Assembly: GCF_004104415.1 (NCBI RefSeq)
Contig: NZ_CP034669.1
DNA from: Corallococcus coralloides
Lineage (GTDB): Bacteria > Myxococcota > Myxococcia > Myxococcales > Myxococcaceae
DNA length: 64,000 bases
Reading direction: 5' to 3' (one strand)
Part shown: one piece after another, positions 1,348-38,579 of the stretch
Layout: every line of letters starts with the position of its first letter
Numbering within the stretch: position 1 is the first letter of the stretch
Translations under genes and position numbers: made by a program
The notes under the pieces: model-generated
Seen by the model: only the letters and a program-made list of their open reading frames with translations
Told to the model about the DNA's origin: nothing
Databases searched by the model: none

Positions 1348-1359
1348 CATCGTGGTGCC

Positions 1360-2376: not shown

Positions 2377-2502
2377 GGGGCGCCAACCTATCAAAGGCCC
2401 TGACGCTTCCAACGAGAACCACCGTGCGCCCGGCCGGGCAGGCGGACGCAAGCGCCCCCTTCTCAACACCCGCCGGCCCCCCTGCCCCCTCCGGACGGAG
2501 GG

Positions 2503-3291: not shown

Positions 3292-3384
3292 GGTGGCACC
3301 CGCCCGTCCGGAGCGTCCAATGCTGTTCTGGCATGACGCGGCCCGGGTGCACGGCGCGCACGACTCGCGCTAACCTCCCCGCGC

Positions 3385-3681
3385 GTGAGCATCACGCACC
3401 TCCAGTCCTTCGTCGCGGTGGCGGAAGAGGGCCACGTGGGCCGGGCCGCGCTCCGGCTGCACCTCACCCAGCCGCCGCTCAGCCGTCACATCCTCGCCCT
3501 GGAGGATGAACTGGGCACGCCCCTCTTCGAGCGCGTCCCCAAGGGCATGCGCCTCTTGCCCACCGGCGAGGCCCTGCTCCAGCACGCGCGCCGCATCCTC
3601 GCGGAGGTGGAGGTCGCCACCCGCACCGTGCGCGAGGCGGCCCAAGGCTCCGGAGCCGCCTCCAAGCCGCCCGCCGCCTGA
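3385..3681 (+). pseudogene. LysR-family regulator, N-terminal HTH fragment only (98 aa; truncated)
   Basis: 'MSITHLQSFVAVAEEGHVGRAALRLHLTQPPLSRHILALEDELGTPLFERVPKGMRLLPTGEALLQHARRIL' is a canonical LysR wHTH but ORF stops after ~98 aa, abutting the 3' end of the helicase gene (3685); no co-inducer-binding domain in any frame downstream. Confidence 0.45.
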
Positions 3682-3684
3682 CGG

Positions 3685-6246: not shown

Positions 6247-6298
6247 CGGGCCCGACTCTAGGGGTTGGCGCTGGGGCCACCGTGAAAAATCGCGCGGC

Positions 6299-6733
6299 TC
6301 AGCGGGAAACGTACAGTCCCACCGCGATGCGACCCTCCGTCAGGGGTCCGCCGGCCGCGGGGCGCTGCCAGCACACCCGCCCCGCCTGCTCCTGCGACAG
6401 GCAGGGCACGTCCGTCACCTCCAGCGAGGCTCCGGCCAGGCGGGCCTTGCGCACGGCGGCGCTCCGCGTCAGGCCCAGCAGCTCCGGCGCGGCGGGCGGT
6501 GTCGCCTCGGGGCCCTGCTGGACGAAGAGGGCCCGCACCTCACCGGGGCCACCGGGGGTGAAGCGCATTCCCGTCCCGTCCGCGGTGACCCCGCCGTGCA
6601 GCTCCAGCTCCACCGGCCCCAGCACGAAGGGGCCGGCGCCGAGCCGCGCCTGGACCCGCGCGAGCGACTCACGCAGGTCCACCAGCAGGGCCTCCAGGTC
6701 GATGGCGTCGCTCATCGCGCCAGGGGCCTCCAC
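6299..6733 (-). CDS. Hypothetical protein with C-terminal PASTA-like domain; last gene of 11-gene operon
   Basis: 144 aa; C-terminus 'PELLGLTRSAAVRKARLAGASLEVTDVPCLSQEQAGRVCWQRPAAGGPLTEGRIAVGLYV' fits PASTA consensus; N-terminus helix+hairpin 'LEALLVDLRESLARVQARLG...VELELHGGV' may be a degenerate copy of the operon's repeated module. No signal peptide. Confidence 0.5.
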   Translation of the reverse strand: MEAPGAMSDAIDLEALLVDLRESLARVQARLGAGPFVLGPVELELHGGVTADGTGMRFTPGGPGEVRALFVQQGPEATPPAAPELLGLTRSAAVRKARLAGASLEVTDVPCLSQEQAGRVCWQRPAAGGPLTEGRIAVGLYVSR

Positions 6734-6752
6734 CGTGGCGTGGCGCCCCGGC

Positions 6753-7421
6753 TCACTTCAGCGTCCCGGGCGTCGTGGACTCCAGGACGGGCGAGCGGGT
6801 GGGCGTGCTGGTGGGGGGGAGCTTCCCGCCCCCGGTGGCTTGCACGGTGAGCACCAGCTCGGTGCCGCGCGGAAGCAGCGTCCCCGGCTCGGCCGAGGCC
6901 GAGGTGACCAGGGCGGCGTCCGCCGCGCCGCTGGGGAACCGGTGCGGCACGCCAATCGCGGACAGCAGCAGCCGCGCGTCGCCCACCGTCTTGCCCACCA
7001 CCGCCGGCACCACCACCAGCGCCTCCGCCTGGGGCGAGGGAGGCACCGGCACCACCCGGAACTTCAGCCGCGACTGCGCCGTCAGGTTGTAGGCGAAGCG
7101 GTTGGTGTAGCTGGCGTCCATGGGCGCGCCGTACATCTTCAGCCGCGTCCGTCCATCCGTCCGCTCCTCCGCGGTGATGGACAGCGCCACGGCGATCTCC
7201 GCCTCGGCCTCGGGGATGTGGTACCAGGTCGGCCGGTAGCCGATGCGCTGCAGCTCCACCGCCAGGTCCTCGTCGGAGGCGTAGAGCTCGCGGATCCGCT
7301 CGATGGTCGCCGCGTCCAGCTCCCGCTGCGCCTCCGCCACGCCGCGGCCCACCGAGGAGATCAACGCGCCCAGCGGCGCGCTCAGCGCCTCCAGTTGGGG
7401 GACGTCATTCGAATCCGCCAT
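6753..7421 (-). CDS. Repeated-module paralog (copy 6) fused to C-terminal PASTA-like domain
   Basis: 222 aa; module 'LGALISSVGRGVAEAQRELD...WYHIPEAEAEIAVALSITAEERT...YNLTAQSRLKFRVVPVPPSP' then PASTA-like 'VVPAVVGKTVGDARLLLSAIGV...VTSASAEPGTLLPRGTELVLTV'. 3-nt gap to next gene. Confidence 0.55.
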   Translation of the reverse strand: MADSNDVPQLEALSAPLGALISSVGRGVAEAQRELDAATIERIRELYASDEDLAVELQRIGYRPTWYHIPEAEAEIAVALSITAEERTDGRTRLKMYGAPMDASYTNRFAYNLTAQSRLKFRVVPVPPSPQAEALVVVPAVVGKTVGDARLLLSAIGVPHRFPSGAADAALVTSASAEPGTLLPRGTELVLTVQATGGGKLPPTSTPTRSPVLESTTPGTLK

Positions 7422-7424
7422 GGT

Positions 7425-8156
7425 TCAGCCCTCCATCGCCTGGCCAATGATCAACTGCACGGGGCCCGAAGCGAGCGGCTTGCCGGGCTCCGGAATCTGC
7501 CGCAGCACGCGCCCCCACTGCCCGGGCTCCTTGACGAAGAGCGGCATCAGGTCCACCCGCAGCCCCGCCTCCGCCGCGCGCCGCCGGGCCGCCGAGGCCG
7601 TCAGCCCCAGGAAGCCTGGCACCTCGCGGGCGGGCGCGTCGCCCGGCTCGGGCGCGGCGGGAGACTGCTCCACGAACTGGGCCTCCGCCTCCGTCACGCC
7701 CTCGGGCGTCGTCTCCGTCCACCGCACGCGCACGGTGCTCAACCGCACCGTCGTCAGCGACGAGCGCACCGACTCAATCTGCTGGCCCGCCGACTTCAAC
7801 TTGTCGGACAGCACCAGGGACGGGGGCTGTTCCAGGGCGGGCTCCTTCGTGGGCTCCACCGCCGCGGAGGACACGGCGCGGACGCCCTCCCTCGCGGGCT
7901 CCAGGACGACCATCGTCCCGTAGTCGATGAGGGTGCTGCTCATCTTCACCGGGAAGGTGGCCACCCCGGCGGAGTCCAGCCGGAGGTGGGAGCCGAAGGT
8001 GGCGCTGCTGACCTCCATCTCCAGCACGCCCTCCTGGTTCGTCACCCCGGTGTCGCGCAGCTCGAAGGTGCCCGCCTTCGCGGGGACCCACCACGCCACC
8101 TTCATGCCCGCCACGGGGACTCCCGTGGCCTTGCGGAACACGGCCCGGACCTTCAT
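7425..8156 (-). CDS. CarboxypepD_reg/Big-like domain protein with C-terminal PASTA-like domain
   Basis: 243 aa; 'KATGVPVAGMKVAWWVPAKAGTFELRDTGVTNQEGVLEMEV' resembles carboxypeptidase-regulatory-like beta-sandwich; C-terminus 'VPGFLGLTASAARRRAAEAGLRVDLM...VLRQIPEPGKPLASGPVQLIIG' PASTA-like. ATGA overlap with upstream gene. Confidence 0.5.
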   Translation of the reverse strand: MKVRAVFRKATGVPVAGMKVAWWVPAKAGTFELRDTGVTNQEGVLEMEVSSATFGSHLRLDSAGVATFPVKMSSTLIDYGTMVVLEPAREGVRAVSSAAVEPTKEPALEQPPSLVLSDKLKSAGQQIESVRSSLTTVRLSTVRVRWTETTPEGVTEAEAQFVEQSPAAPEPGDAPAREVPGFLGLTASAARRRAAEAGLRVDLMPLFVKEPGQWGRVLRQIPEPGKPLASGPVQLIIGQAMEG

Positions 8157-8818
8157 CGAGCCACCTCGCAGGACAGCGCCAGCGTCCGCGACGCGGCGTC
8201 CACCGTGAGCGCCAGGATGCGGGCCTGCTCGCCGGCCGCCACGCGCAGCGTCGTCCGCGCCTCCCCGGCCGCGTCCGTCCTCACCACCGCGAGCACCACG
8301 TCCGTGCCCGCCAGCGGCGCCACGCCGGACAGCGACTGCGTCGTCCGCCGGTCCAGGTTGAACTCCACCTCCACGCCCGGCAGGGGCTCGCCCGCGGCGT
8401 TGCGCACGCGCACCACCACGCCCGGCACGCCCCCGTCGCCGAGGACGCAGCGGGCGTCCAGCACCACCGGAGGCAGGCCCTCGTTGGCCGGCACCGCGAC
8501 GAAGCTGCCGCGGATCACGCTGACAATCTCAGTCTGCGTCTGCGAAGAGGCCACGTCCGCCAGCCGCACGGGCCGCATCTTCAGGATCTTCCCGGTGGCC
8601 ACCGGTCCGGTGGTGGTGGTGGACGTCTCCACGCGCAGGTCCATCCGCAGCTCGAACTCCAGCTTCGGCACGTAGTAGGTGAACTGGCGGCCGGGGGCGC
8701 CGGCCGCGGAGATGCCCCCCAGCTCCTGCTGGGCCTTCGCCAGGCCGTCGGCCAGCTCGAGCAGGTACTCGTCCAGCGTGCCGAACAACTCCTGCGCCTG
8801 CTGTGTCGTGTCACTCAT
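8153..8818 (-). CDS. Repeated-module paralog (copy 5) fused to CarboxypepD_reg/Big-like domain
   Basis: Track ORF 8153..8857; start MSDTTQQAQELF at 8818 gives 8-nt 'ATGAGTGA' overlap with upstream stop. Module 'LDEYLLELADGLAKAQQELG...FTYYVPKLEFELRMDLRVETS...TQTEIVSVIRGSFVAVPANE' then 'VPGVVVRVRNAAGEPLPGVEVEFNLD' beta-sandwich. Confidence 0.55.
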   Translation of the reverse strand: MSDTTQQAQELFGTLDEYLLELADGLAKAQQELGGISAAGAPGRQFTYYVPKLEFELRMDLRVETSTTTTGPVATGKILKMRPVRLADVASSQTQTEIVSVIRGSFVAVPANEGLPPVVLDARCVLGDGGVPGVVVRVRNAAGEPLPGVEVEFNLDRRTTQSLSGVAPLAGTDVVLAVVRTDAAGEARTTLRVAAGEQARILALTVDAASRTLALSCEVAR

Positions 8819-9761
8819 CCCGCGCTCCCTGGCGCCCGCGTTCCCGCCGCGCGTCACGTGCCGTGTCGCGTGCGTCCATGTCGTCCATGCCCATGCCGGC
8901 GCGCTCCATCTCCATGTCCATCCGCTGCTCCATGGATTCCATGTCCATGCCGGCCATCGCCAGTCCGCGCATCATCAGGGCCTCGGTGTCCATCGAGCGG
9001 GGATCCATCCCCCGAAGCTCGCGCGCCACCGCCACCCCCTTCTCCACCTTCCCTACCGTGAGCCCGCCGCGCCCCACCAGGGCCCGGCCCACCTGCCCGA
9101 GCGAGGGCAGCGCCTGGCCCTTCTCCAGCGCGAGGGGCTTGCGCGCCGCCGAGCGCGCCTCCTCCGCCGCGTCCGACAGCCGCCGGGTCGCGGACCCCAG
9201 CTCGCCCAGGGTCATGCGCCCCCGGCCCGGAGACTCCAGCACGCGCTGCGCCAGCCGCGTCGCCAGCTTCGCGCGCTCACGCGCCTTGCGCGCCCACTGC
9301 TGGCGCAGCGTCTGCTGCTTCTGCGCCTGACGCCGGGCCGCCTTCCCCGTCTCCAGGCGCTCGCGGCGCAGCGCCTCCACCCGCTCGGCCTCCTCCGCCT
9401 CCGTCCGGCGCCGGGCGTATAGCTTCTGCTCCAGCAGCCGCCGCGCGGTGTCCCGCTCGTGCTGCTTGCGCTCCGCGATGCGCGACTCCGGCGTGTGCTG
9501 GACGACGGGGAACTGCTTCGCCAGCCGCTCGTCCACGGGCGCCTCCTGCACGCCGCTCAGCGCCTTCATCGTGTCTTCGAGCTGCCGGCGCTCCTTCAGC
9601 AGCGCCGCCAGCTCCGGGTCGCTGGCGGCCACCTGCTCCAGCGAGGGCACGGGCGCCGCCGCGGACGTGTCCGCTCCCGGAGCAGGAGCGGGCGCGCCAG
9701 CGTCGTCGGGGGCCCCGGCGGCGTCCTCCTCGAGCAGGTCTTCCCAACGGACGTGTGACAT
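8811..9761 (-). CDS. Highly charged coiled-coil protein with Met/Asp-rich C-terminal tail
   Basis: 316 aa, R/E/K/Q-rich heptad-like stretches ('RRRTEAEEAERVEALRRERLETGKAARRQAQKQQTLRQQWARKARERAKLA'), C-terminus 'MMRGLAMAGMDMESMEQRMDMEMERAGMGMDDMDARD'. No signal peptide. Confidence 0.5.
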   Translation of the reverse strand: MSHVRWEDLLEEDAAGAPDDAGAPAPAPGADTSAAAPVPSLEQVAASDPELAALLKERRQLEDTMKALSGVQEAPVDERLAKQFPVVQHTPESRIAERKQHERDTARRLLEQKLYARRRTEAEEAERVEALRRERLETGKAARRQAQKQQTLRQQWARKARERAKLATRLAQRVLESPGRGRMTLGELGSATRRLSDAAEEARSAARKPLALEKGQALPSLGQVGRALVGRGGLTVGKVEKGVAVARELRGMDPRSMDTEALMMRGLAMAGMDMESMEQRMDMEMERAGMGMDDMDARDTARDARRERGRQGARDE

Positions 9762-9779
9762 GCGCGGCGCCCCTCTTCG

Positions 9780-10370
9780 TCAGGTGACGTTGCCCACGGC
9801 GGTGTCGATCTTCCCGCTGACGGCCTCGCCCTCCGCGGTGCCCTTGAGGCTCTTGGCGATCTCCGCGCAGATCTGCTGGAGCGCCGCGGGCGGGGGGATG
9901 GGCACCAGCTTGGTGCGGATGAGGCTCGAGCCCTCGGCGGAATAGCTGTACTTCTGCGAGTGCTTGGCCGTGACGGTGGTGACGTGGCTCTTGTGGCCCT
10001 TCACCAGCGTGGTGAGGATGCCCTTGTCGCGGTCCACCTTGCGGTCGCGCGTCTGGGTCGAGTCGTCCGTGGACTCGTGCATGGAGATCTCCATCTTCAC
10101 TTCGATGATGGTCTCCACGAACTGGTAGAACGTGGGCGTGAAGCCGAGCAGGAGCAGGGGGTACTCGGTGGTCCCCAGCTTCACGAAGCCGGCGCCGTCC
10201 CGCACGGCGTTGCCGCTATCGTCGATGCGGTAGCCCGCCATGAGCTGGGCGATCTTCAGCGATGAGCTGTCCAGCGCGTACTGGGCATCCGCGATGGCGT
10301 TGCCCAGGTTGCGGACCATCTCCCCGAAGGGGACGTTGAGCAGATCCTGACCAATGGAGTGAGTGGGCAT
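9780..10370 (-). CDS. Repeated-module paralog (copy 1), stand-alone 196 aa
   Basis: 'LLNVPFGEMVRNLGNAIADAQYALD...LGFTPTFYQFVETIIEVKMEISMHEST...KYSYSAEGSSLIRTKLVPIPPPAAL'. Aligns along full length with 10389..10961 and 10984..11487. Confidence 0.6.
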   Translation of the reverse strand: MPTHSIGQDLLNVPFGEMVRNLGNAIADAQYALDSSSLKIAQLMAGYRIDDSGNAVRDGAGFVKLGTTEYPLLLLGFTPTFYQFVETIIEVKMEISMHESTDDSTQTRDRKVDRDKGILTTLVKGHKSHVTTVTAKHSQKYSYSAEGSSLIRTKLVPIPPPAALQQICAEIAKSLKGTAEGEAVSGKIDTAVGNVT

Positions 10371-10388
10371 GGTGCGCGCGCTCCCGGG

Positions 10389-10961
10389 CTACTTCGTGGT
10401 GGGCGTGGTGCCGGCCCTGGACGCGATGAGCGCGCGAACCCGCTCCTCGAAGAGGGCCGGCGGAGGCACCGGCACCAGCTTGGTGCGCAGCAGGCTGGAG
10501 CCCTCCACGCTGTAGTCGTACTTGCGCGTGTAGCTGGCATCCACGGTCGTCACCACGGCCTGGGGCGCGCCGCCGCGCTTGAAGAGGCGCAGCCCGCCGG
10601 CCGTCCGCGAGGTGCTCTGCGTCGCCACCTTGCTCTCCGTGCTCTCCGTCATCTTGATGGCGATCTTCACCTCGATGATGGTGTCCACGAACTGGTAGAA
10701 GTTGGGCGCGAAGCCCAGCTCCATCATGGACGAGGGCGTGCCCGCGAAGGACACCTTGGTGTCCACCCGGATGGGCTTGCCGGAGCCGTCGAGCTGGATG
10801 TTCCCGTCGGCGTCCCGCAGCAGCGCCTCGCCGCTCATCATCTCCGCGACGAGCATCCCGCTCTTGTCCAGCTCGAGCTGCGCCTCGGCGATGGCGGTCG
10901 CCATCTCACGAATCATGTCCCCCATGGGGACGTTCAGCAGTTCCTGACCGACGTTGGGCAT
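10389..10961 (-). CDS. Repeated-module paralog (copy 2), stand-alone 190 aa
   Basis: 'LLNVPMGDMIREMATAIAEAQLELD...LGFAPNFYQFVDTIIEVKIAIKMTESTES...KYDYSVEGSSLLRTKLVPVPPPALF'; AAGGA Shine-Dalgarno-like upstream. Confidence 0.6.
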   Translation of the reverse strand: MPNVGQELLNVPMGDMIREMATAIAEAQLELDKSGMLVAEMMSGEALLRDADGNIQLDGSGKPIRVDTKVSFAGTPSSMMELGFAPNFYQFVDTIIEVKIAIKMTESTESKVATQSTSRTAGGLRLFKRGGAPQAVVTTVDASYTRKYDYSVEGSSLLRTKLVPVPPPALFEERVRALIASRAGTTPTTK

Positions 10962-10983
10962 GGTGTCTGGGTCCTTGCGCGCT

Positions 10984-11487
10984 TCAGGCGGAGGTGTTGG
11001 TGGAGGCCGCGGGGGCGGGCGGCTGGGCGGCGATCTCGTTGAGCAGTTGGTGCAGGCGCGCGGGCGGGGGCAGCGACACCAGCCGCGCGGCGATGGAGCT
11101 GGCCCCCTGCACCTCGAAGCCGTACTTGCGGCTGTACTCGGCGTTGACCGTCACGGAGAAGACGCCGGCCATGCCGCCCGTCGCGCCGCCGCCCACGGAG
11201 AACTCCGTGGACTCGCGGATGGTGAAGGTGAGCTTCGCCTCGAGCGTGGCCTCGGCGAAGGCGTAGAACGTGGGCGTGAAGCCGAGCGCGAGCAGGCTCC
11301 ACAGCTGCCCGTCGCCCAGGTCCACGGTGCGCTCGGACATGCGCTTCGCGATGTCCAGCGAGTTGATGTCCAGCGCGTGCTGCGCGTCCGCCACCGCGCG
11401 CCCGAGCCGCTCGATGAGCTCCGGCAGCGGCGCGTCCAGCACCGTCATCATCGCGCGCTGGCCCTGCGTGGTGTTGTTTCCGGGCAT
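10984..11487 (-). CDS. Repeated-module paralog (copy 3), stand-alone 167 aa
   Basis: 'LPELIERLGRAVADAQHALD...LGFTPTFYAFAEATLEAKLTFTIRESTEFSV...KYGFEVQGASSIAARLVSLPPPARL'; AGGAGG SD immediately upstream. Confidence 0.6.
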   Translation of the reverse strand: MPGNNTTQGQRAMMTVLDAPLPELIERLGRAVADAQHALDINSLDIAKRMSERTVDLGDGQLWSLLALGFTPTFYAFAEATLEAKLTFTIRESTEFSVGGGATGGMAGVFSVTVNAEYSRKYGFEVQGASSIAARLVSLPPPARLHQLLNEIAAQPPAPAASTNTSA

Positions 11488-11496
11488 GGGGCCTCC

Positions 11497-13593
11497 TTAC
11501 GGGTACCAGCGCTGGAGGTAGTCGCCAATGGCCTGGAGGAACTGGGGCGGCGCGGGCACCGCCACCAGACGGGCCTTGATGGTCGAGCTGCCGGACACGC
11601 TCAGCTCGTACTTCACCGCCAGGTGCGCATCCACGTTGAGGGCGCGCAGCTCGCGCTCGGAGCTCTCCTCGCGGTCCGCGGACGGCTTGCCGGCGATGCG
11701 GTTGGCGGACAGCAGGAAGGCGGCGGGGTTGCTGGTGCCCAGCATGGTGCCGGAGGGGCCGGAGACGGTGACGATGTTGCCCGCGGACTGGGCCTGGAGG
11801 CCCGCGGCCAGCAGGCCGGAGCTGGAGCCCGCCGTGATGGCGGCGGCCAGGTTGCGCGCCGTGTCCGCGGCCGTCACCCCCAGCGTGAACTGCCCTGGCT
11901 GCGGGGCGACGCCGGCCTCCACGGCCACCAACTGCACGTTGTCGAGGACGACGGTGTCGCGCGGCTGGGGCGAGGCCGGGGGGCGGCCGTCGCCGAAGCG
12001 GCGGGCCACGCGGATGGAGCCGGCGGCGGACAGGGCCGGCGCGGTGGGCGTGCGCGCGAACAGGGTGAACAGGGCGTGGTCGCCGGTGCCGTACAGGTAG
12101 ACGCGGTCCCCGCGCGCGAAGGCGCCGAAGGCGGTGTTGGCGTTGGCGTCGCGGATGGCGCGGGCCAGGTTGGCGGCGGTGGACTCGGCGGTGGCGCCCA
12201 CCGCGAAGGTGGTGCCCTGGGAGGCGGTGCCCTGGGTGAAGTCCGTGCCGCGGAAGGTGACGACGGCCGTGGTGGGCGCGTTCGCCGCGGCGCGCGTGCG
12301 CGGCACGATGCGGGCCTCCCGGTCCGCCCCCGTGGGGTCGAAGGCGGCCGTGGCCGCGACGGTGCGGGCCACCAGCGACGCGGGCACGCCGGCGAACTTG
12401 AAGACGACGCGCCGGTTGGCCGCCAGGTCGGAGCCGCTGAAGCTGACCGTCGCGCCCATGCCCCGGGCCTTGAGCCTGCTGGCCGCCACGCCCCGCGACG
12501 TCAGCGCCCGCAGGACGAAGTCCGCGCGCTTCTGCGACAGGCGCTGGTTGTAGCCGGGGGCCGGCGGGGTGCGCTGGTCCGCCCAGCCCTCCAGGTCCAG
12601 CGAGGCGGACGGGTGCTCCGCCAGCAGCGCCGCCACCGCGTCGAGCACGGCGGAGGGCTCGCGGTCCGTGCTGTAGGTGGTGGTGGGCACGTCGTGGATG
12701 TCGGTGTCGAAGTAGAGGGCCCGGTTGCAGTCAGCGCCGGAGACGACGACGAAGGCCGCCGGGTCCACCTGCTGGCCAATGTCCGCCAGCGCCGCGCCCA
12801 CCGTCGCCGCGGCGCTGGTGTAGCGCGTGCCGTTGGTGGCCGGCAGCAGCAGCGCGGGCGCGGGCGTCACGCTGCCCAGGCGCGCGATGACCAGGTTGTC
12901 GCCGGGCGCCGCCTGCGGCGAGGTGCGCACGGTGATGACCGAGCGGTTGATGGCGTAGAGGTCCGGGCGGTTGGTGCTGGCGGTGACGCCCGACTGCATC
13001 TCCCAGTCCATGAAGATGCCCTGCAGATCCCCCGTGGCCTGGTTGGTCCAGACGGAGTTGTTGCGCAGGGCCACGAGCAGCTCCTGCGCCGTCTCCCACA
13101 GCGTGTCCTGGCGGGTCACGGGCAGGCCGGTGCTGTTGGGCCCCACGCCGCCGTCCAGCGCGTAGCTGGTGGTGCCCACCGTGAGGTGGCCCGGCGCGTT
13201 GGCCACCAACGCCAGACAGGCGTAGGGGGGAATGCCCTCGCCGTCCTGCACGGTGAGGGTGGCGCTGCCGCTGGCGGAGGACGTCTCGAGGCTGTACTCG
13301 CTCGACTCGTTCTCCCGGTCGTAGTTGAAGTTGACGTCCACGTCGACGGTGGTCGAGTAGTAGACGTTGAGGTTCACCTCCAGGTCGGCGTACTGGAAGT
13401 GGTAGAAGGCCGGCCGCAGCCCCAGCGACAGCAGGTTCTGCGTCATGCCCGGCAGGACGGTCTGCCCCATGCGCAGCGTCTGGTCCACGCTGTTGGTGTC
13501 CAGCTTGGCCTGGGCCTCGGCGATGGCGAGCCCCATGTCCCGGATGAAATCGGAGATGTTGAGATCCGCGAGGATCTTCCCTGCTTTCGGCAT
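11497..13593 (-). CDS. Repeated-module paralog (copy 4) split around a large insert containing an OmpA/MotB-like peptidoglycan-binding domain
   Basis: 698 aa; N-terminus 'ILADLNISDFIRDMGLAIAEAQAKLD...LGLRPAFYHFQYADLEVNLNVYYSTTVDVDV', central 'LDLEGWADQRTPPAPGYNQRLSQKRADFVLRALTSRGVAASRLKARGMGATVSF...NRRVVFKF' (OmpA_C-like), C-terminus 'KYELSVSGSSTIKARLVAVPAPPQFL'. No signal peptide. Confidence 0.6.
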   Translation of the reverse strand: MPKAGKILADLNISDFIRDMGLAIAEAQAKLDTNSVDQTLRMGQTVLPGMTQNLLSLGLRPAFYHFQYADLEVNLNVYYSTTVDVDVNFNYDRENESSEYSLETSSASGSATLTVQDGEGIPPYACLALVANAPGHLTVGTTSYALDGGVGPNSTGLPVTRQDTLWETAQELLVALRNNSVWTNQATGDLQGIFMDWEMQSGVTASTNRPDLYAINRSVITVRTSPQAAPGDNLVIARLGSVTPAPALLLPATNGTRYTSAAATVGAALADIGQQVDPAAFVVVSGADCNRALYFDTDIHDVPTTTYSTDREPSAVLDAVAALLAEHPSASLDLEGWADQRTPPAPGYNQRLSQKRADFVLRALTSRGVAASRLKARGMGATVSFSGSDLAANRRVVFKFAGVPASLVARTVAATAAFDPTGADREARIVPRTRAAANAPTTAVVTFRGTDFTQGTASQGTTFAVGATAESTAANLARAIRDANANTAFGAFARGDRVYLYGTGDHALFTLFARTPTAPALSAAGSIRVARRFGDGRPPASPQPRDTVVLDNVQLVAVEAGVAPQPGQFTLGVTAADTARNLAAAITAGSSSGLLAAGLQAQSAGNIVTVSGPSGTMLGTSNPAAFLLSANRIAGKPSADREESSERELRALNVDAHLAVKYELSVSGSSTIKARLVAVPAPPQFLQAIGDYLQRWYP

Positions 13594-31749: not shown

Positions 31750-32464
31750 TGGGCGCCTGCTGTGCGGGCTGTTGGCCCTGCTCTGTCTGTCGTGCGCTTC
31801 GGGTCCAAGGCAGTACGCGCAGACGTCCGACTCCGCGACCAGCGGATGTCTGCGCAATCCCACCTGCTACACGCAGCCGGGGGATGAGGCGTTCCTGCCG
31901 TGGGTGGACAAGGCCGCCAGGGCCGCGGCCTCAGCGGGCGCCACGATGAAGCTCCTGGAGGCGGCGGACGTGGCCCGCATCGAGCACCTGCTGGTGGAGT
32001 GCGCGAAGGACGCGGACTTCATCGTCAATGAGCGTGAGTACGGCGAGGGGAAATACCCGGACGACAAGGAGTGCTTGCGCGTGGTGGGCCAGGACAAGGA
32101 CGGCAAACCCATCCGGCGGCAAGCGGAGCTGGGTAGGTTGAAGCATGACGTTGCCTTCGCATGCGTACGGCGTGAAATCCTCCGGCGCTTCCCCAGCAAC
32201 GTTTCGATCGAGCCGAGCTATGTGATCCGCACGGGCAAGTCGGGGCAACAGGACCTCATGAAGCCCGACGTCGTCCTTCACGCTTCAGGCCGGCCGGATC
32301 AGGCCCAGTGCGTCTACGACTTCAAGTTTCCATGTCTCAAGGCAAGCAAGGGCAATCCGCTCTCGGTTCCAGAAACACAGGTTCAGATGACCCGGTACTC
32401 ACGACTTGATGGACAGTGTAACCCCGCCATCATCACACCTCAGTTCGGGATCATTCGTGAGTAG
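31742..32464 (+). CDS. Lipoprotein with PD-(D/E)xK-like motif; candidate lipoprotein toxin (SitA-like?)
   Basis: Start MIDGRLLCGLLALLCLSCAS (lipobox LSC) overlapping upstream stop (ATGATTGA); 'KPDVVLH...(15)...CVYDFKFPC' resembles PD-(D/E)xK nuclease core; locally reduced GC (~58%). Confidence 0.45.
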   Translation: MIDGRLLCGLLALLCLSCASGPRQYAQTSDSATSGCLRNPTCYTQPGDEAFLPWVDKAARAAASAGATMKLLEAADVARIEHLLVECAKDADFIVNEREYGEGKYPDDKECLRVVGQDKDGKPIRRQAELGRLKHDVAFACVRREILRRFPSNVSIEPSYVIRTGKSGQQDLMKPDVVLHASGRPDQAQCVYDFKFPCLKASKGNPLSVPETQVQMTRYSRLDGQCNPAIITPQFGIIRE

Positions 32465-33461
32465 CTACACTCCCTCTGAACACTTCGCCACGACACTCCC
32501 CAGGGTCCAGCTCGTCCTGCGCATCGTGTTCTATCTGCCGCATGACCACGGGGTGCTGACCCCTGTTCTACGACGCCTTCTCGATACCTATCTCGCATTC
32601 ATTGCCGCCAGCGGTGGAGCACTGACTGCAGGAGCGGATCCCGACATCAGTGAGGCTGTCTTCCCGCTCACTCCCGCCACCTGGGAAGAGGTCCATACGG
32701 AACTGGCGAAGGCTCGTTTCGGCCCATTGGATGACATGGACAAGGACTCCTTCTGGTTCTGGACCTTGACCAAGCGGGGCTTCGACACGTGGGTCCATCT
32801 CATTGGCGGAGAGTCAGATCCCAGCGGCTACGAATTCAGCTTCCGCTCTCGGCTTCCCTGGCGTGAACCTTCTTCTGAGTACAGCGTCCTGAGCGTGAAG
32901 GTCCCCATGCAGTACCTGGAGGACCAGGGGCCCGAGAAGGCACGTGAGCTGGCGCTGGCGCTGGCGGAGCTCCTTCCCTTCAGCACGGGCCATGCGGGAC
33001 TGTCGCTTTCGTTCACCCGTGGGAGGTCGCAACTCCTTCCCCTCCTGAGGGATCGACTGACCCAACATCCCGGCTGGGATGTTCCACGGGAGAGTACCTG
33101 GGGCATGGGAGAAGGAGTTGACGGCATCCACTGGCTGAACTTCCTGGGCCCTCCCCTCCTCGAAACCGTTGGCGGCATCCAGGCGCTCCGCTCGCACCTG
33201 AGCCACCCGGAGACCTCCGTCCAGGAGCTCACCGGAGGCCGTGCCGTCATCGACCTGGGCCCCGCGCCGCTCGCGGGGAATACGAAGTGGGGTGAAACGC
33301 TGCCGGCGTATCGAGAGCTGGCCCGGTTCCTGGAGCCGTGGATGCTGCCCTCCGCTCCCTTCAACAATTTCGAGGGCTACACCCCGGAGGAGGCCCGCCT
33401 CTGGTGGCGCCGCTTCCTGGAGGCCCCTCCCGAGAAGCTCTACGACCCTCGCGGCGGGTAA
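32409..33461 (+). CDS. Hypothetical protein (possible cognate immunity protein); start may be GTG at 32457
   Basis: Track ORF begins TTG 32406/ATG 32409; GTG at 32457 would give the same 8-nt overlap geometry (GTGAGTAG) as upstream junction. Low GC (~57%) in first 600 nt. No recognised domain. Confidence 0.45.
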   Translation: MDSVTPPSSHLSSGSFVSSYTPSEHFATTLPRVQLVLRIVFYLPHDHGVLTPVLRRLLDTYLAFIAASGGALTAGADPDISEAVFPLTPATWEEVHTELAKARFGPLDDMDKDSFWFWTLTKRGFDTWVHLIGGESDPSGYEFSFRSRLPWREPSSEYSVLSVKVPMQYLEDQGPEKARELALALAELLPFSTGHAGLSLSFTRGRSQLLPLLRDRLTQHPGWDVPRESTWGMGEGVDGIHWLNFLGPPLLETVGGIQALRSHLSHPETSVQELTGGRAVIDLGPAPLAGNTKWGETLPAYRELARFLEPWMLPSAPFNNFEGYTPEEARLWWRRFLEAPPEKLYDPRGG

Positions 33462-33590: not shown

Positions 33591-36500
33591 ATGCGGTCAC
33601 AACGCGCTGTCTGGAGCAGGCTCCTGTTGTTCGCCGCGAGCCTGGGCCTTCTGTCCTGCGGCGGGAACGAGCGCCCGGCGGCATCCGCGGGCATCCGCAC
33701 CACGCACGCCCGTCTCGCGACGGCGCCGGCCTGGTACGACACCGCCTCCATGGCGGCGACGCGCGCTCAACACGCGACCGTCCTGCTCCCAGACGGGAGG
33801 CTGCTCGTCGTCAATGGCATCAACACGGCCGGCTTCGTGGGGACGGCGGAGACCTACGATCCCGCCACCAACACCTGGAGCTCCGCGGGCCCCACCAGCC
33901 TCACGGGCAACGTCACCCTGGCCGTGCTCCTGCCCACGGGCCGGGTCCTGGTGCTGACCGATGGCTCGCAGGGGGGACGCCTCTATGATCCCGCCACCAA
34001 CGCCTGGTCCGCCACGGGCAACATGTCCTCGACCCGCGCCCTCCCCACGGCCACGCTGCTGGGCACGGGACAGGTCCTGATCGCGGGCGGCACTGGCGGT
34101 GGCGGCGTCCGGCTCGCCACCGCGGAGCTCTACGACCCCGCGACCAACACCTTCCTTCCCACCGGGGCGATGCCCCAGGGCCGCAACGCGCACACCGCCA
34201 CGCGCCTGCGCGACGGACGCGTGCTCGCGGTGAGCGGATTCAGCGGGTCCGGCGAGGTGGCCGGCGCCGACCTCTACGCCCCCGCGACCGGGACCTGGTC
34301 CGCCGCCGCGCCCCCGCTGGTCGCCCGTCACTACGCCACGAGCACCCTGCTCCCCGACGGCCGCGTGCTCGTCTCGGGTGGCTTCACCGCGGGCGGTGCC
34401 ACGGCCCAGTCGGAGCTCTACGATCCGGCGGCCAACACCTGGACCGCCACGGGCAGCCTCGCGTTCCCGCGCTCCGGCCACATGGCCACGCTGCTGCCCG
34501 ACGGGCGCGTCCTCGTCACCGGTGGTTCCGCCTCCGTCAGCGCGGCGGCGCAGATCGAATCGGAGATCTACGATCCCGCCACCGGCACCTGGACCAACGC
34601 GGGCACGATGAAGGTCGCCCGCGAGAACCACACCGCGACGCTGCTGCCCACGGGCAAGGTGTTCGTCGCGGGCGGCTACTCCAGAACCCCCGGCCTGACC
34701 TTCTATGCGCAGACGGAGGTCTACGACCCCGCCAGGAGCCAGTGGTCCCCGGCCGGCGCCATGGGCACGCCCCGCACCGACGCCGCCGTGGCGCTGCTGC
34801 CCTCGGGCCAGGTGCTCGTCGCGGGTGGCCGTGCGATCGGTTCCTCGGCGGCGGTGGAAGTGTACGACCGCGCGAGCAACAGCTGGAGCGCCGCGCCCGC
34901 GCTCGCCGGGCCTCGCGAGCGCGCGACCGCGACCGTCCTTCGCTCCGGCCAGGTGCTGGTCGCCGGTGGACGCGACGGGAGCACGTCGAGGGAGAGCGCG
35001 CAGCGCTTCGATCCCGCCACCAACACCTGGCTGGCCACCGCGCCCCTGCCGAGCCCGCGCCACCTGCACACCGCCACGCTCCTTCCGGATGGCCGGGTGC
35101 TCGTCGTCGGCGGTCAGCGCAACACCACCGTGCTGGACACCGTGGAGATCTACGCGCCCGACACGGATACCTGGACCTCCGGGGCCCCGCTCGCCACGAC
35201 GCGCGCCGGACACCGCGCCGTGCTGCTCCAGGACGGCCGGGTGCTCGTCGCGGGCGGCCGCACGGGCGGCGGCGTGGAGCTGGACTCGGCGGAGCTCTAC
35301 AACCCCACCAACGACACCTGGGCCCCGGCGGCGAACCTCCTGGGCGCCCGCGACGAGCTGACGCTGACGCTCTTGCCGTCGGGTCAGGTGCTCGCGGTGG
35401 GCGGCCTCGCGGCCTTCACGAAGCTTGCGTCCGCGGAGCTCTACACGCCCGGCACCAACACCTGGACGTCCGTGGGTGCGCTCACGCAGCCGCGCTGGAT
35501 CCACTCCGCCACGCTGATGCCTTCCGGCAAGGTGCTGGTCGCGGGCGGCATCACCACGACCGACGACTACGCCGACACGGCGGAGGTCTACGACCCCGCC
35601 CTCCGCGCTTGGACCAACGTCGAGGACCCCGCCGCGGCGGGAGGTCTGATCACCGTCTCCCTGCCCTCGGGCGAGGTCCTGCTGGCGGGGGGCCAGGAGC
35701 CCACCAACGCGCAGCTGTTTGACGACACCCGGGCCCTTCCCGCCTGGAAGCCGACGGTGACGAACCCGGCGACCCTCGTCGCCGCCTGCCCCACCGTCGT
35801 GGAGGGCCTGCGCTTCCGGGGCATCTCCGGCGGAAGCGGCGGCAACTTCGCGGACTCGCCCGCGGACTTCCCCCTGGTGCGCCTGCGGGCCGCCGAGGGT
35901 GGACGCCTCTGGACGCTCCCCAGCAGCAACACCTCGGACACCCGCGCGACGGTGACGGTGCCCGCAGACGCGCCGCTGGGCACCTACGCGCTCTCCGTCT
36001 TCGCCAACGCCATCCCCGGCGGCCGCATGGTGACGGTCGTCGCCAACCAGCCTCCGACGGCGGCGGACCAGACGGTCACCGTCCAGAGGGACACGCCGCT
36101 GGAACTCGCCCTGGCCGGCACGGATCCGGACCCCGGCCAGGTGTTGACCTGGACAATCGTCACCCAGCCGCAGCACGGCACGCTCGGCACCAGCGCGCAG
36201 GGGAACCTCGAGTACACGCCCGAGGCCGGCTTCGTGGGCACGGACAGCTTCACCTACCGGGTCCGCGACTGCGCCGACGACAGCAACGTCGCGACCGTGA
36301 CCCTCAACGTGACGGAGGACGTGGTCACCCGCACCCTCACCTGCCCCGCGAACGTCGTCGTGGAGGCGACGGATCCGGACGGCGCGCTCGTGACCTACGA
36401 CCCCGCGGTCCTGGACCCGGCGGGCGGGCTCCCGGTGAGCTACACGCAGCCGTCGGGCGCTCTGTTCCCCATTGGCACCACGACGGTCACCGCGACCTCC

Positions 36501-36872
36501 ACGGGCCTCACCTGTTCGTTCCAGGTGACGGTGCAGGACACCACGGCGCCCACGCTGACCTGCCCCGAGTCCCGGAGCGCGGCCCCTGGCGAGACGATCA
36601 CGTTCGAGCCCACGGCCACGGACGCGGTGACGGCCTCTCCGGTGGTGACGTCCTCGCCGGCTTCCGGCAGCCCCTTCCCCGCGGGCGCCACGACGGTCAC
36701 CGTCACCGCCACGGATGACGCGGGCAACACCGCGCAGTGCACGTTCCAGGTCCGGGTCCAGGCGCAGGTCGTGGAGATCGCTGGCGGTGGCTGCGATAGC
36801 ACCGGTGGCACCACGTCCGCGCTGGCGCTCCTCGCCGCGCTCGCGGCCTGGGGGAACTCGCGCCGCCGTCAG
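33591..36872 (+). CDS. Kelch-repeat lipoprotein with Ig-like/HYR domains and MYXO-CTERM tag; no in-frame stop before next gene
   Basis: Lipobox 'LGLLSCG'; >12 Kelch blades ('AELYDPATNTW', 'ATLLPDGRVLV'); HYR-like 'TLTCPANVVVEATDPDGALVTYDP'; MYXO-CTERM 'GGGCDSTGGTTSALALLAALAAWGNSRRRQ' then immediately 'MRMKAQSWALAALLATAVTPAAFA' (signal peptide of next protein) in the same frame. Confidence 0.7.
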
Positions 36873-38579
36873 ATGCGGATGAAGGCCCAGAGCTGGGCGC
36901 TGGCCGCGCTGCTGGCCACCGCCGTCACCCCCGCCGCTTTCGCGCAGACCCCCACGAGCCCGCTCGTCCCGCTGGACCTGGAGCGCCTGCGCTTCACGCC
37001 CGCGGCGACGGACTCGATGCTGGTGGACACCGGCCGCGTGCTCCCCGAGGGCGGCTACCGCCTGCTCCTCATGGTCAACTACGAGCGCGGCATCCTCCTG
37101 CTCCAGGGCAGTGACGGGCTGGAGCGCTCCATCCTCCACTACCGCACCGCGGGCTGGCTGGCCGGCGCGTGGTCGCCGGTGGACCGGTTGGAGTTCTCCG
37201 CGAAGCTGCCCGTCATCATCGCGCAGGGAGGCCACGGCGCGGAGCAGCTGGTGGGCGTGAGCGAGCCGGACTCGTTCGGCCTGGGCACGCCGGAGCTGGG
37301 CGTGCGCTACGAGCTCTTGCGGCGCGAGGAAGGCGCGCCGGTGTTCCTGGGCCTGGGATTGGACATCGGGATTCCGGGCGGCACGGCGGACGCGTTCGGC
37401 CGTCAGGCGGGCTGGGCCGGGTTCCAGTTCGCGCCCCGCGTGTCGGTGAGCCGCGAGCTGGGCCCCGTGGTGCTGGGCGCCAACGCGGGCATCCGGATCC
37501 GCTCGAAGGAAGTCGAGCCGGGCCGCGACGTGGGCACGGAGCTGGAGCAGGGCGTGGTGGTGGCCACGCGAGGCAAGGGGCTGCGCGGCGAAATCGCGCT
37601 GCAGGCCGCCGAGTCGCTCGTGGAGTCGGACTTCGCGCTGGAGCTGCTGGGCGGCGTGCGGCTGCCGGTGGGCGCCGGCTTCGAGGCGTTCGCGATCGGC
37701 GGGCACGGCTTCACGGACATCCCGGGCACGCCGTCGTTCCGGCTGGCTGCGGGCATCGCTTACGCGAACGATCCCGAGCCCGTGGACCGCTGCCGCACCG
37801 GCCGCAGCCACACGCCGGAGCAGTGCCCGAACGAGGACGACGACGGCGACGGCGTGGCGAACAAGGACGACCGCTGCCCGCTGGAGTCCGGCTCCGTGGA
37901 GAACAACGGCTGCCCGGACAAGGACTCGGACGGCGACGGCGTGGTGGACCGTGAGGACCAGTGCCCGAACGAGGCCGGTCCCTCGTCCGAGCGCGGCTGC
38001 CCCGTGAAGGACACGGATGGCGACGGCGTGCCCGACAAGGACGATGCCTGCCCGAACGAGGCCGGTCCGTCGTCCGAGCGTGGCTGCCCCGTGAAGGACA
38101 CGGACGGCGACGGCGTGCCGGACAAGGACGACGCCTGCCCGAACGAGGCCGGTCCCTCGTCCGAGCGCGGCTGCCCCGTCAAGGAACAGCCCAAGCCCGA
38201 GCCGAAGCCCGAGGAGAAGCCCGCGGAGGAGACGACGTCGCCGCTGGAGCACATCGTCCAGTTCCCGGTGAACCAGTCGGAGTTCCAGGAGAACGAGCAG
38301 CAGCAACTGGACGCCATCGTGGCCTACCTGAAGGCGAACCCGAAGCTGAACGTCCGGATTGAGGGCCACACGGACAACAGCGGCCCGGAGGAGGCCAACC
38401 GCACGCTGAGCCATCAGCGCGCGAACCGCGTGCGCGCGTACCTCATCCAGAAGGGCATCGCGGGCTCGCGGCTGGAGGCGAAGGGCTTCGGCCCCGACCG
38501 TCCGCGCGTGTCCAACGAGACGCCAGAAGGCCGCAGCGCGAACCGCCGCGTGGAGTTCGTCCCCGTCACGGGGAGCTGA
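36873..38579 (+). CDS. OmpA-family outer-membrane protein with thrombospondin type-3 (TSP3) repeats
   Basis: Signal 'MRMKAQSWALAALLATAVTPAAFAQ'; N-terminal beta-barrel-like region; TSP3 repeats 'DTDGDGVPDKDDACPNEAG' x5-6; C-terminal OmpA domain 'NVRIEGHTDNSGPEEANRTLSHQRANRVRAYLIQKGIAGSRLEAKGFGPDRP...ANRRVEF'. Confidence 0.85.
   Translation: MRMKAQSWALAALLATAVTPAAFAQTPTSPLVPLDLERLRFTPAATDSMLVDTGRVLPEGGYRLLLMVNYERGILLLQGSDGLERSILHYRTAGWLAGAWSPVDRLEFSAKLPVIIAQGGHGAEQLVGVSEPDSFGLGTPELGVRYELLRREEGAPVFLGLGLDIGIPGGTADAFGRQAGWAGFQFAPRVSVSRELGPVVLGANAGIRIRSKEVEPGRDVGTELEQGVVVATRGKGLRGEIALQAAESLVESDFALELLGGVRLPVGAGFEAFAIGGHGFTDIPGTPSFRLAAGIAYANDPEPVDRCRTGRSHTPEQCPNEDDDGDGVANKDDRCPLESGSVENNGCPDKDSDGDGVVDREDQCPNEAGPSSERGCPVKDTDGDGVPDKDDACPNEAGPSSERGCPVKDTDGDGVPDKDDACPNEAGPSSERGCPVKEQPKPEPKPEEKPAEETTSPLEHIVQFPVNQSEFQENEQQQLDAIVAYLKANPKLNVRIEGHTDNSGPEEANRTLSHQRANRVRAYLIQKGIAGSRLEAKGFGPDRPRVSNETPEGRSANRRVEFVPVTGS
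37962..38180 (+). repeat. Near-identical 87-bp tandem repeats (2.5 copies) encoding TSP3 units
   Basis: Seen directly: 37962-38048 and 38049-38135 differ at only a few positions; third copy starts 38136 and diverges after ~45 nt. Confidence 0.8.

What the first reader, a model, noticed from the sequence alone, without database searches (positions are those of the whole stretch)
36840..36885. No stop codon between MYXO-CTERM lipoprotein and downstream OmpA-TSP3 gene: probable TAG->CAG stop loss or genuine fusion
The Kelch/HYR protein ends with a complete MYXO-CTERM tag ('GGGCDSTGG...LALLAALAAWGNSRRR'). The next codon is CAG (36870-36872), followed directly by ATG CGG ATG AAG. This encodes an obvious signal peptide ('MRMKAQSWALAALLATAVTPAAFA') of an OmpA-family protein. 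A single C->T at 36870 would restore TAG immediately before the ATG. As it stands a 1662-aa read-through ORF results, with a sorting tag and a signal peptide stranded internally.
Basis: seen in the sequence. Interest (0 to 1): 0.6.

Follow-up and report, generated by a model that had tools for sequence, protein, structure and literature searches.

The report
Deletion-made adhesin–OmpA envelope gene fusion
A 60-base in-frame deletion has joined a myxobacterial surface-adhesin gene to the outer-membrane anchor gene behind it; many other myxobacteria carry the same join, and it is probably cut back into two proteins during export.

Summary
One ORF (33591-38579, 1662 aa) runs from a Kelch/HYR lipoprotein, through a complete MYXO-CTERM tag, into a signal peptide and a barrel/TSP3/OmpA protein.

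The proposed TAG->CAG mutation is wrong. The CAG (Gln) is conserved in the eight closest Corallococcus orthologs, which continue ...RRRQ-NPARGN-TGA, then 3 nt, then ATG (MRSLFSRMDLPLRMK...). The window lacks exactly 60 nt: the tail, the stop, the spacer and the first 12 codons of the downstream gene. ATG 36873 is created by the deletion join. A strain 96.5% identical in DNA (Corallococcus sp. CA049B) still has two genes, so the event is recent and strain-level.

The fusion is nevertheless a natural state. At least 20 intact 1507-1902 aa fused orthologs exist in Pyxidicoccus, Cystobacter, Archangium, Melittangium, Myxococcus stipitatus and others. They are interleaved with split forms on a tree (at least 9 state changes). 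All keep the same module: GGGC, a membrane helix, an Arg cluster, a short basic linker, a second hydrophobic segment, then AxA/G|Q.

Best model (inferred): a membrane hairpin cut by myxosortase and signal peptidase I, giving a surface adhesin and a TraB-like barrel/OmpA anchor. A 2025 paper noted one such fusion (MXAN_5598), so this is a new member of a known kind.

The parts
33591..38579 (+). Fused ORF, 1662 codons plus stop: Kelch/HYR adhesin, internal MYXO-CTERM tag, internal signal peptide, beta-barrel, TSP3 repeats, OmpA domain
33591..33659 (+). N-terminal lipoprotein-type signal peptide ending in the lipobox LLS|C (Cys codon 33657-33659)
   Evidence: Read from the sequence. The L-L/A-S/A-C motif is conserved in orthologs. 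No signal-peptide predictor was run.
33720..35700 (+). Kelch beta-propeller repeats (approximate bounds)
   Evidence: Kelch_4, Kelch_1 and Kelch_6, E 1e-64 to 1e-70
36033..36317 (+). Big_9 / cadherin-like Ig domain (aa 815-909)
36534..36758 (+). HYR domain (best stretch aa 982-1056; a second copy lies just upstream)
36783..36869 (+). MYXO-CTERM tripartite tag, now internal: GGGC (Cys codon 36792-36794), hydrophobic helix SALALLAALAAW (36816-36851), Arg cluster RRR (36861-36869)
   Evidence: TIGR03382 above cutoff, TIGR03901 just below
36870..36875 (+). Deletion join. CAG (Gln, ancestral) is followed by ATG, made from the A of the ancestral AAC and the TG of the ancestral TTG. The breakpoint lies between 36873 and 36874. 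60 nt present in relatives are missing here (NPARGN, TGA, 3-nt spacer, MRSLFSRMDLPL).
36861..36890 (+). Basic linker RRRQMRMKAQ (net charge +5), the predicted cytoplasmic turn of the hairpin. It contains ATG 36873 and ATG 36879.
36891..36944 (+). Second hydrophobic segment plus c-region, SWALAALLATAVTPAAFA: an internal signal peptide with predicted SPase I cleavage AFA|Q between 36944 and 36945
   Evidence: Sequence, and conservation in 22 fused and about 40 split homologs. Cleavage is inferred.
37056..37769 (+). Predicted 12-stranded outer-membrane beta-barrel (mature residues 38-275)
37860..38222 (+). Thrombospondin type-3 (TSP3) calcium-binding repeats (approximate bounds); the copy number varies between strains
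38262..38546 (+). OmpA-like peptidoglycan-binding domain

Best explanation
This is a TraAB-like two-gene envelope cassette. Its first gene encodes a Kelch/HYR surface lipoprotein with a MYXO-CTERM sorting tag. Its second encodes a TraB-like protein made of an outer-membrane beta-barrel, TSP3 repeats and an OmpA peptidoglycan-binding domain. In this Corallococcus strain a 60-nt in-frame deletion has turned the two genes into one ORF. The deletion removed the six-codon tail, the TGA stop, the 3-nt spacer and the first 12 codons of the second gene. That part is shown.

The rest is inferred. The fused precursor is exported through Sec by its N-terminal lipoprotein signal. The MYXO-CTERM helix stops transfer, with its Arg cluster left on the cytoplasmic side. 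The next hydrophobic segment re-inserts with its N-terminus in the cytoplasm and its C-terminus outside, and so restarts translocation. The tag, linker and signal peptide therefore form a helical hairpin with a short, strongly basic cytoplasmic turn. Myxosortase cuts at the tag and frees the adhesin for surface display. Signal peptidase I cuts at AFA|Q and frees the barrel/OmpA protein for assembly into the outer membrane. A peptide of about 50 aa is left over. The fusion is therefore functionally near-neutral, or useful for strict 1:1 co-delivery. That would explain why the same kind of fusion has arisen and persisted repeatedly in myxobacteria.
For: Shown:
- Eleven other Corallococcus loci have two genes. 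Eight of them carry RRRQ(N/H)...TGA + 3 nt + ATG, and the window differs from these by a single clean 60-nt gap.
- A conspecific (L018, Corallococcus sp. CA049B, 96.5% nt identity over 9.2 kb) is split. The alignment breaks exactly at window 36873/36874.
- At least 20 intact fused orthologs of 1507-1902 aa occur in at least 6 genera.
- In 22 fused proteins the module is constant: GGGC; 21-23 aa from the Cys to the Arg cluster; a linker of 4-18 aa with net charge +3 to +8; a second hydrophobic segment of 12-21 aa; and G or A at position -1 in 22 of 22.
- Fused proteins that share a junction type are only 83-88% identical over 1500-1870 aa, yet remain intact. The fused state has therefore survived speciation.
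- Fused and split forms are interleaved on a barrel-domain tree, with at least 9 state changes. The window is nested among split Corallococcus, and the fused C. macrosporus among split M. xanthus-group proteins.
- Fused L012-L014 have no ATG, GTG or TTG between the Arg cluster and the hydrophobic segment, and no SD-like motif. There the barrel protein can only be made as part of the precursor.
- The downstream half is a predicted integral outer-membrane 12-strand barrel plus a Pal-like domain, so it must cross the inner membrane.
- A more distant Hyalangium paralog has the same fused module next to a split pair.

Literature:
- traA and traB overlap by 4 nt (PMC3325183).
- MXAN_5598 has an internal MYXO-CTERM followed by an outer-membrane barrel and OmpA. 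It was proposed to be a gene fusion whose N-terminal part is processed, on the grounds that internal sorting tags are known to work (PMC11980579).
Against: - There is no experimental evidence here for either cleavage, or that the fused product of this strain is functional.
- The deletion is strain-level: a conspecific lacks it. It could be a recent, mildly deleterious mutation.
- The deletion allele was seen only in this one sequence, and reads cannot be inspected.
- No signal-peptide or topology predictor was available. The helix and cleavage calls rest on hydropathy, charge and the -3/-1 rule.
- TIGR03901 scores just below its cutoff (17.1 against 20).
- Two ATGs (36873, 36879) sit in front of the signal peptide, so some independent initiation cannot be excluded.
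Confidence: 0.66

Rival explanations
1. This is a recent, damaging mutation. The deletion strands the sorting tag and signal peptide inside the protein, so one or both halves are mis-sorted, and the allele simply has not yet been purged.
For: The event is strain-level: conspecific CA049B is split. The native start and the SD-like GGGGGA, which sits 8 nt upstream of that start in relatives, are deleted. No second observation of the allele was found.
Against: Equivalent fusions with the same module are intact and conserved across species and genera. Both halves of the window ORF are full length, with no other lesion. The deletion preserved the frame, the helix, the Arg cluster, the h-region and the AxA site.
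Confidence: 0.15
2. The two proteins are still made separately. The OmpA-like protein is translated independently from the internal ATG at 36873 or 36879, and the read-through fusion is a minor or irrelevant product.
For: Two in-frame ATGs lie directly before a complete signal peptide. Annotation of relatives often starts at the equivalent MK or TTG codons.
Against: With no stop codon, every ribosome translating the adhesin must continue into the OmpA part. No SD-like motif lies 4-12 nt upstream of either ATG. Fused orthologs L012-L014 have no usable start codon in the linker at all, yet keep the signal-peptide features.
Confidence: 0.12
3. This is a sequencing or assembly artefact. The 60 nt are present in the real genome, which has two genes.
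For: Only one sequence shows it. Reads could not be examined. The source genome is not in the searchable collections.
Against: The gap is a single clean block of exactly 60 nt with unique boundaries. No flanking repeat could collapse an assembly, and the region is not a homopolymer. Natural fusions of the same kind are common.
Confidence: 0.06
4. This is a point-mutation stop loss (TAG->CAG at 36870).
For: A single C->T change would indeed create TAG directly before the ATG.
Against: CAG is conserved as Gln in the eight closest orthologs. Their stop is a TGA 18 nt downstream, within a 60-nt block that the window lacks.
Confidence: 0.01

Closest known systems
TraA/TraB outer-membrane-exchange pair of Myxococcus xanthus (PMC3325183)
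   Same: A surface protein with a MYXO-CTERM tag is encoded immediately upstream of a protein with an N-terminal barrel-like domain, TSP3 repeats and a C-terminal OmpA domain. The two genes are translationally coupled: traA and traB overlap by 4 nt, and the Stigmatella ortholog of this pair overlaps by GTGA. The TraB model matches both the TSP3/OmpA part (194 bits) and, weakly but co-linearly, the barrel (E 3e-4).
   Different: The adhesin here is a Kelch propeller with Big_9 and HYR domains and an N-terminal lipobox, not PA14 plus Cys-rich repeats. The TraB score is far below the family cutoff of 700 bits, so this is a paralogous family. Here the two genes are fused. No role in outer-membrane exchange is implied.
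MXAN_5598, the internal-MYXO-CTERM fusion noted in the myxosortase paper (PMC11980579)
   Same: The architecture is the same: a large adhesin, an internal MYXO-CTERM, an outer-membrane beta-barrel and an OmpA domain. The authors interpreted it as a fusion of two TraA/TraB-like genes, with processing of the N-terminal part proposed.
   Different: It lies at a different locus (beside ftsA and ftsZ) and has a different adhesin. Homology to the window protein was not tested here. That paper does not describe the internal signal peptide, the split/fused polymorphism among orthologs, or the recurrence of fusions.
Sorting tags that work at internal positions: LPXTG (Navarre and Schneewind 1994) and an ArtA substrate with a non-C-terminal tripartite signal (both as cited in PMC11980579, refs 45 and 46)
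   Same: A tripartite sorting signal (motif, helix, basic cluster) is recognised and cut although more polypeptide follows it.
   Different: The enzymes and organisms are different. In those cases the trailing sequence is not a second exported protein with its own signal peptide.
Membrane polyproteins split at internal signal peptides, e.g. Bradyrhizobium FbcH cytochrome b/c1 precursor and flavivirus polyproteins (from my own knowledge; not checked with the tools)
   Same: A stop-transfer helix is followed by an internal signal sequence, which signal peptidase cleaves to release a second mature protein.
   Different: The proteins are unrelated. Here the first cut would be made by a sorting protease (myxosortase), and the products go to the cell surface and the outer membrane.
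Classical (type Va) autotransporters
   Different: A membrane hairpin with two predicted cleavage sites separates the passenger from the barrel. The barrel is followed by TSP3 and OmpA domains. MYXO-CTERM proteins are reported to reach the surface through the type II secretion system (PMC11980579). Sequence identity to these barrels is only 8-13%.

Membership tests
MYXO-CTERM sorting domain (TIGR03901 / TIGR03382) | Signature motif with an invariant Cys (G-G-C) | tested here: met
   GGGC at aa 1065-1068 (36783-36794), invariant in 22 of 22 fused homologs
MYXO-CTERM sorting domain (TIGR03901 / TIGR03382) | Hydrophobic helix followed by a cluster of Arg residues | tested here: met
   SALALLAALAAW followed by RRR. 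The distance from the Cys to the Arg cluster is 21-23 aa in all fused homologs.
MYXO-CTERM sorting domain (TIGR03901 / TIGR03382) | HMM score above the curated cutoff | tested here: inconclusive
   TIGR03382 scores 18.1 bits against a cutoff of 15.85 (met). TIGR03901 scores 17.1 bits against a cutoff of 20 (not met).
MYXO-CTERM sorting domain (TIGR03901 / TIGR03382) | Located at the extreme C-terminus of the protein | tested here: not met
   568 further residues follow the tag in the window ORF. In split relatives the tag is followed only by QNPARGN.
MYXO-CTERM sorting domain (TIGR03901 / TIGR03382) | Cleavage by myxosortase MrtX and surface display | not testable with these tools
   Requires experiments. 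Known for TraA and MXAN_4924 (PMC11980579).
TraB, outer membrane exchange protein (NCBIfam NF033763) | Whole-protein score of at least 700 bits | tested here: not met
   193.7 bits, mostly from the TSP3/OmpA part. The barrel alone gives 18.7 bits, E 3e-4. This is a TraB-like paralog, not TraB.
OmpA-like peptidoglycan-binding domain (PF00691) | Pfam gathering score, and the Pal/OmpA C-domain fold | tested here: met
Integral outer-membrane beta-barrel | Closed antiparallel barrel resembling solved outer-membrane barrels | tested here: met
Sec type I signal peptide, here internal | Basic n-region, hydrophobic h-region, small residues at -3 and -1 | tested here: met
   n-region RRRQMRMKAQ (+5), h-region SWALAALLATAV, c-region PAAFA|Q. 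Position -1 is G or A in 22 of 22 fused homologs, and -3 is A, V or T in 21 of 22. No dedicated predictor was available, and cleavage was not tested.
Adhesin / internal MYXO-CTERM / barrel / OmpA fusion (MXAN_5598 type, PMC11980579) | One ORF with an N-terminal adhesin region, an internal MYXO-CTERM, and a C-terminal outer-membrane barrel plus OmpA domain | tested here: met
   Sequence homology to MXAN_5598 itself was not tested.

The most novel reading that the evidence does not exclude
The tag, basic turn and signal peptide together form a self-resolving separator module. It lets myxobacteria switch freely between a two-gene operon and a single polyprotein for a surface adhesin and its TraB-like outer-membrane anchor. 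The repeated, independent fusions (at least 9 state changes) would then be selected, because one precursor guarantees 1:1, co-localised delivery of the two partners. The autotransporter-like or FapF-like 12-strand barrel might serve as the dock, or even the conduit, for its own adhesin. That would make this a previously unrecognised class of bacterial envelope polyprotein, processed by a sorting protease together with signal peptidase.
Probability: 0.3. Interest if true: 0.6.

Novelty: new member of a known kind. Interest (0 to 1): 0.42.

Why it matters
The finding corrects a plausible but wrong call (point-mutation stop loss or sequencing error) that would lead annotators to mark the gene as broken. 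It shows that a Kelch/HYR adhesin and its TraB-like anchor exist as two genes or as one ORF in closely related myxobacteria, always with the same tag, basic turn and signal peptide at the join.

This offers a natural, isogenic-scale test system: the fused strain here against split CA049B, 96.5% identical. Two questions from recent myxosortase work could be addressed with it. Do internal MYXO-CTERM tags get processed? How are TraA/TraB-type partners delivered together?

It also warns that internal sorting tags followed by signal peptides in long ORFs are not necessarily errors.

Tried and rejected
- The first homolog search timed out.
- Homolog searches with 345-350 aa queries returned only proteins up to about 1.75 times the query length. 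They therefore missed the fused proteins and at first suggested that fusions were unannotated. The full-length query corrected this.
- Exact look-ups of the 1662-aa, 568-aa and 566-aa products and of two neighbouring proteins found nothing. The source genome seems to be absent from the collections, so nothing can be said about how it was annotated.
- A metagenome scan for the novel junction (CGNCAGATGCGNATGAAGGC) gave 74 matches. All were chance hits with no similarity beyond the seed.
- I looked for microhomology or repeats at the deletion ends and found none of more than 1 nt. A model with two deletions (24 nt + 36 nt, between TGCG repeats) fits equally well in length but needs more events. 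I kept the single 60-nt deletion.
- I considered that the conserved reading frame across the 'intergenic' region in Corallococcus meant TGA read-through. I rejected this because an ATG 3 nt after the TGA is conserved in all 10 Corallococcus species. The region is therefore the N-terminus of the second gene.
- A literature search for bacterial polyproteins with internal signal peptides returned nothing useful. The supplementary Table S1 of PMC11980579 is an image and could not be read.
Full report
**1. The observation**

The + strand ORF 33591..38579 is uninterrupted: 1662 codons and then a stop. Its first 1094 residues carry:
- a lipoprotein-type signal (…LGLLS|C);
- Kelch repeats, a Big_9/cadherin-like domain and HYR domains;
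- a tripartite MYXO-CTERM tag, GGGCDSTGGTTSALALLAALAAWGNSRRR. TIGR03382 scores 18.1 bits, above its cutoff. TIGR03901 scores 17.1 bits, just below its cutoff of 20.

CAG sits at 36870-36872. It is followed by ATG (36873), CGG, ATG (36879) and KAQSWALAALLATAVTPAAFA|QTPTS. The remaining 568 residues carry TSP_3 repeats and an OmpA domain. They score 194 bits on the NCBIfam TraB model, far below its cutoff of 700.

A stop-free ORF alone means little at about 73% G+C; the antisense strand has a 1605-aa ORF. The in-frame joining of two recognisable genes is real, however.

**2. How the stop was lost**

A scan of one genome per species found 14 orthologous loci.

In the ten Corallococcus species among them, there are two genes. 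In seven (L001-L007) the upstream gene ends …RRRQ(N/H)-x4-N-TGA; in L008-L010 it ends …RRRRTSxGVR-TGA. In all ten, three bases follow the stop, and then comes an ATG that opens MRSLFSRMDLPLR(M/T)KAQSW… or a related sequence. The two genes therefore share a reading frame, separated by one stop codon.

The nucleotide alignment shows the window differs by a single clean 60-nt gap. The gap runs from just after CGTCAGA to just before TGCG(G/T)ATGAAG. Three points follow:
- The real stop was a TGA 18 nt further on.
- ATG 36873 is assembled by the join, from the A of AAC and the TG of TTG.

The closest relative found is Corallococcus sp. CA049B (L018). It is 96.5% identical to the window over 9.2 kb and has the two-gene state. 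The BLAST alignment breaks exactly at window 36873/36874. The deletion is thus a recent, strain-level event.

The boundaries are unique, with no flanking repeat. That argues against an assembly collapse, but reads could not be inspected. The source genome is not in the searchable collections. A metagenome scan for the junction gave only chance hits.

**3. The fusion is a common natural state**

The four non-Corallococcus loci are Pyxidicoccus fallax, Archangium gephyra, A. lansingense and Myxococcaceae GXIMD 01537. In each, the tag runs in frame into the signal-peptide-like segment with no stop, and the ORFs are intact at 1535-1800 aa.

A full-length protein search found at least 20 annotated fused proteins of 1507-1902 aa combining Kelch, HYR, TSP3 and OmpA. 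They come from P. fallax, Cystobacter fuscus, Corallococcus macrosporus, Myxococcus stipitatus, M. landrumensis, Archangium species, Melittangium boletus and several uncultured sources. Shorter queries had missed these, because the tool lists only hits up to about 1.75 times the query length.

Across 22 fused sequences the junction module is constant:

| Feature | Value |
|---|---|
| Cys motif | GGGC in all |
| Cys to Arg cluster | 21-23 residues |
| Basic linker | 4-18 residues, net charge +3 to +8 |
| Second hydrophobic segment | 12-21 residues |
| Position -1 | G or A in 22 of 22 |
| Position -3 | A, V or T in 21 of 22 |
| Residue after the predicted cut | Gln |

Fused proteins that share a junction type are only 83-88% identical over 1500-1870 residues. 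The fused ORF has therefore been kept intact through speciation.

**4. Recurrence and direction**

On a neighbour-joining tree of the barrel domain (59 distinct sequences, 19 of them fused), the two states are interleaved. Fitch parsimony needs at least 9 changes. The tree is NJ only, so this count is approximate.
- The window sits among split Corallococcus proteins.
- Fused C. macrosporus (…RRRSR-TRARSW…) sits among split M. xanthus-group proteins (…RRRSRHASH-TGA-24 nt-ATG MDFTLRTQARSW…).

Split proteins of both major clades share an N-terminal extension: MRSLFSRMDLPLR…, or MSxxNLxxRxxS(A/S)KDLPLR…. Some fused proteins keep fragments of it, such as RRRRKDLPWRE… and RRQKRDLPLRT…. This points to repeated fusion by deletions of different extent.

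Split arrangements are themselves tightly coupled:
- a GTGA overlap in Stigmatella;
- an ATGA overlap in a Hyalangium paralog;
- a 3-nt spacer in Corallococcus;
- a 24-nt spacer in M. xanthus.

Hyalangium minutum carries a split pair and, directly next to it, a fused paralog with the same module.

**5. How it most likely works (inferred)**

In fused Archangium and GXIMD loci there is no ATG, GTG or TTG between the Arg cluster and the hydrophobic segment, and no SD-like motif. Export there can only use the internal segment within the precursor.

The proposed topology is as follows:
1. The N-terminal lipoprotein signal exports the adhesin.
2. The MYXO-CTERM helix stops transfer, leaving the Arg cluster in the cytoplasm.
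3. The next hydrophobic segment re-inserts with its N-terminus inside and its C-terminus outside, consistent with the positive-inside rule.
4. Myxosortase cuts at the tag, and signal peptidase I cuts at AxA/G|Q.

In the window the two ATGs could allow some independent initiation, but no SD-like motif lies 4-12 nt upstream. With no stop codon, every ribosome on the adhesin must read through. Cleavage, localisation and fitness remain untested.

**6. Comparison with what is known**

TraA and TraB of M. xanthus are a MYXO-CTERM receptor and an OmpA-domain partner whose ORFs overlap by four bases (PMC3325183). The window's barrel gives a weak, co-linear match to the TraB model (E 3e-4), and its C-terminal part a strong one. 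The total is far below the family cutoff, so this is a TraB-like paralog and not TraB.

The 2025 myxosortase paper notes that MXAN_5598 has an internal MYXO-CTERM followed by an outer-membrane barrel and OmpA domains. [quoted passage not shown] It proposes that the N-terminal part is processed, because internal sorting tags are known to work (PMC11980579, citing Navarre and Schneewind 1994 and an ArtA study).

The kind of fusion is thus already recognised. I did not find the following described:
- this Kelch/HYR family;
- the split/fused polymorphism among orthologs, down to strain level;
- the recurrence of fusions;
- the conserved internal signal peptide.

**7. Verdict**

The point-mutation reading is refuted, and the 'genuine fusion' reading is partly supported. 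The feature is a new member of a known kind and is moderately interesting. It supplies a natural fused/split pair for testing how internal MYXO-CTERM tags and TraAB-type partners are processed.

Noticed in passing
window 32100-33460: G+C drops to 0.59-0.64, against about 0.73 around it. The drop covers an ORF (32406-33461, +) that matches TsiV, a type VI immunity protein for VRR-NUC effectors (E 3e-40). Part of this stretch is missing or divergent in C. interemptor (L002). It may be a horizontally acquired, variable T6SS effector/immunity islet just upstream of the adhesin gene.
   Followed up: partly
L001-L007, L018: about 50 nt before the TGA of the upstream gene (corresponds to window 36843-36860 plus the deleted block): In split Corallococcus, the tail …GCC CGG GGG AAC TGA (PARGN*) is an imperfect direct repeat of …GCC TGG GGG AAC TCG (AWGNS) about 30 nt upstream. 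The extra tail and its stop codon may have arisen by a local duplication. The second GGGGGA also sits 8 nt before the downstream ATG, like an SD sequence.
   Followed up: no
window 33591-36872 versus 36873-38579, compared with L001-L007: Between species the adhesin gene is clearly more diverged (82-88% nt identity) than the barrel/OmpA gene (89-94%). This recalls the polymorphism of the TraA receptor relative to TraB.
   Followed up: no
window about 37820-38190: The TSP3 region contains near-identical tandem units (…CPNEAGPSSERGCPVKDTDGDGVPDKDDA… occurs twice). Off-diagonal BLAST hits show the repeat, and the copy number differs between strains (orthologs are 513-612 aa).
   Followed up: partly
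window 33597-38414, minus strand: A 1605-aa antisense ORF mirrors the fused gene. This is a typical artefact of very high G+C and gives no evidence of a gene.
   Followed up: no
L019 (Hyalangium minutum) 1079-11966: Two paralogous adhesin/OmpA cassettes lie side by side. One is split (1619 aa + 551 aa, with an ATGA overlap). The other is fused (1373 aa) and has the same Cys-motif, helix, basic-turn and signal-peptide module.
   Followed up: partly
L015-L017 (M. xanthus), genes downstream of the pair: In M. xanthus the pair lies upstream of DJ-1/PfpI, an AraC regulator and a 755-aa terminal terpene synthase with two cNMP-binding proteins. This downstream synteny is not kept in the window, where a HAD hydrolase follows.
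   Followed up: no
tool behaviour: the search for homologous proteins appears to list only hits up to about 1.75 times the query length. A domain-sized query therefore cannot reveal fused, longer homologs.
   Followed up: yes
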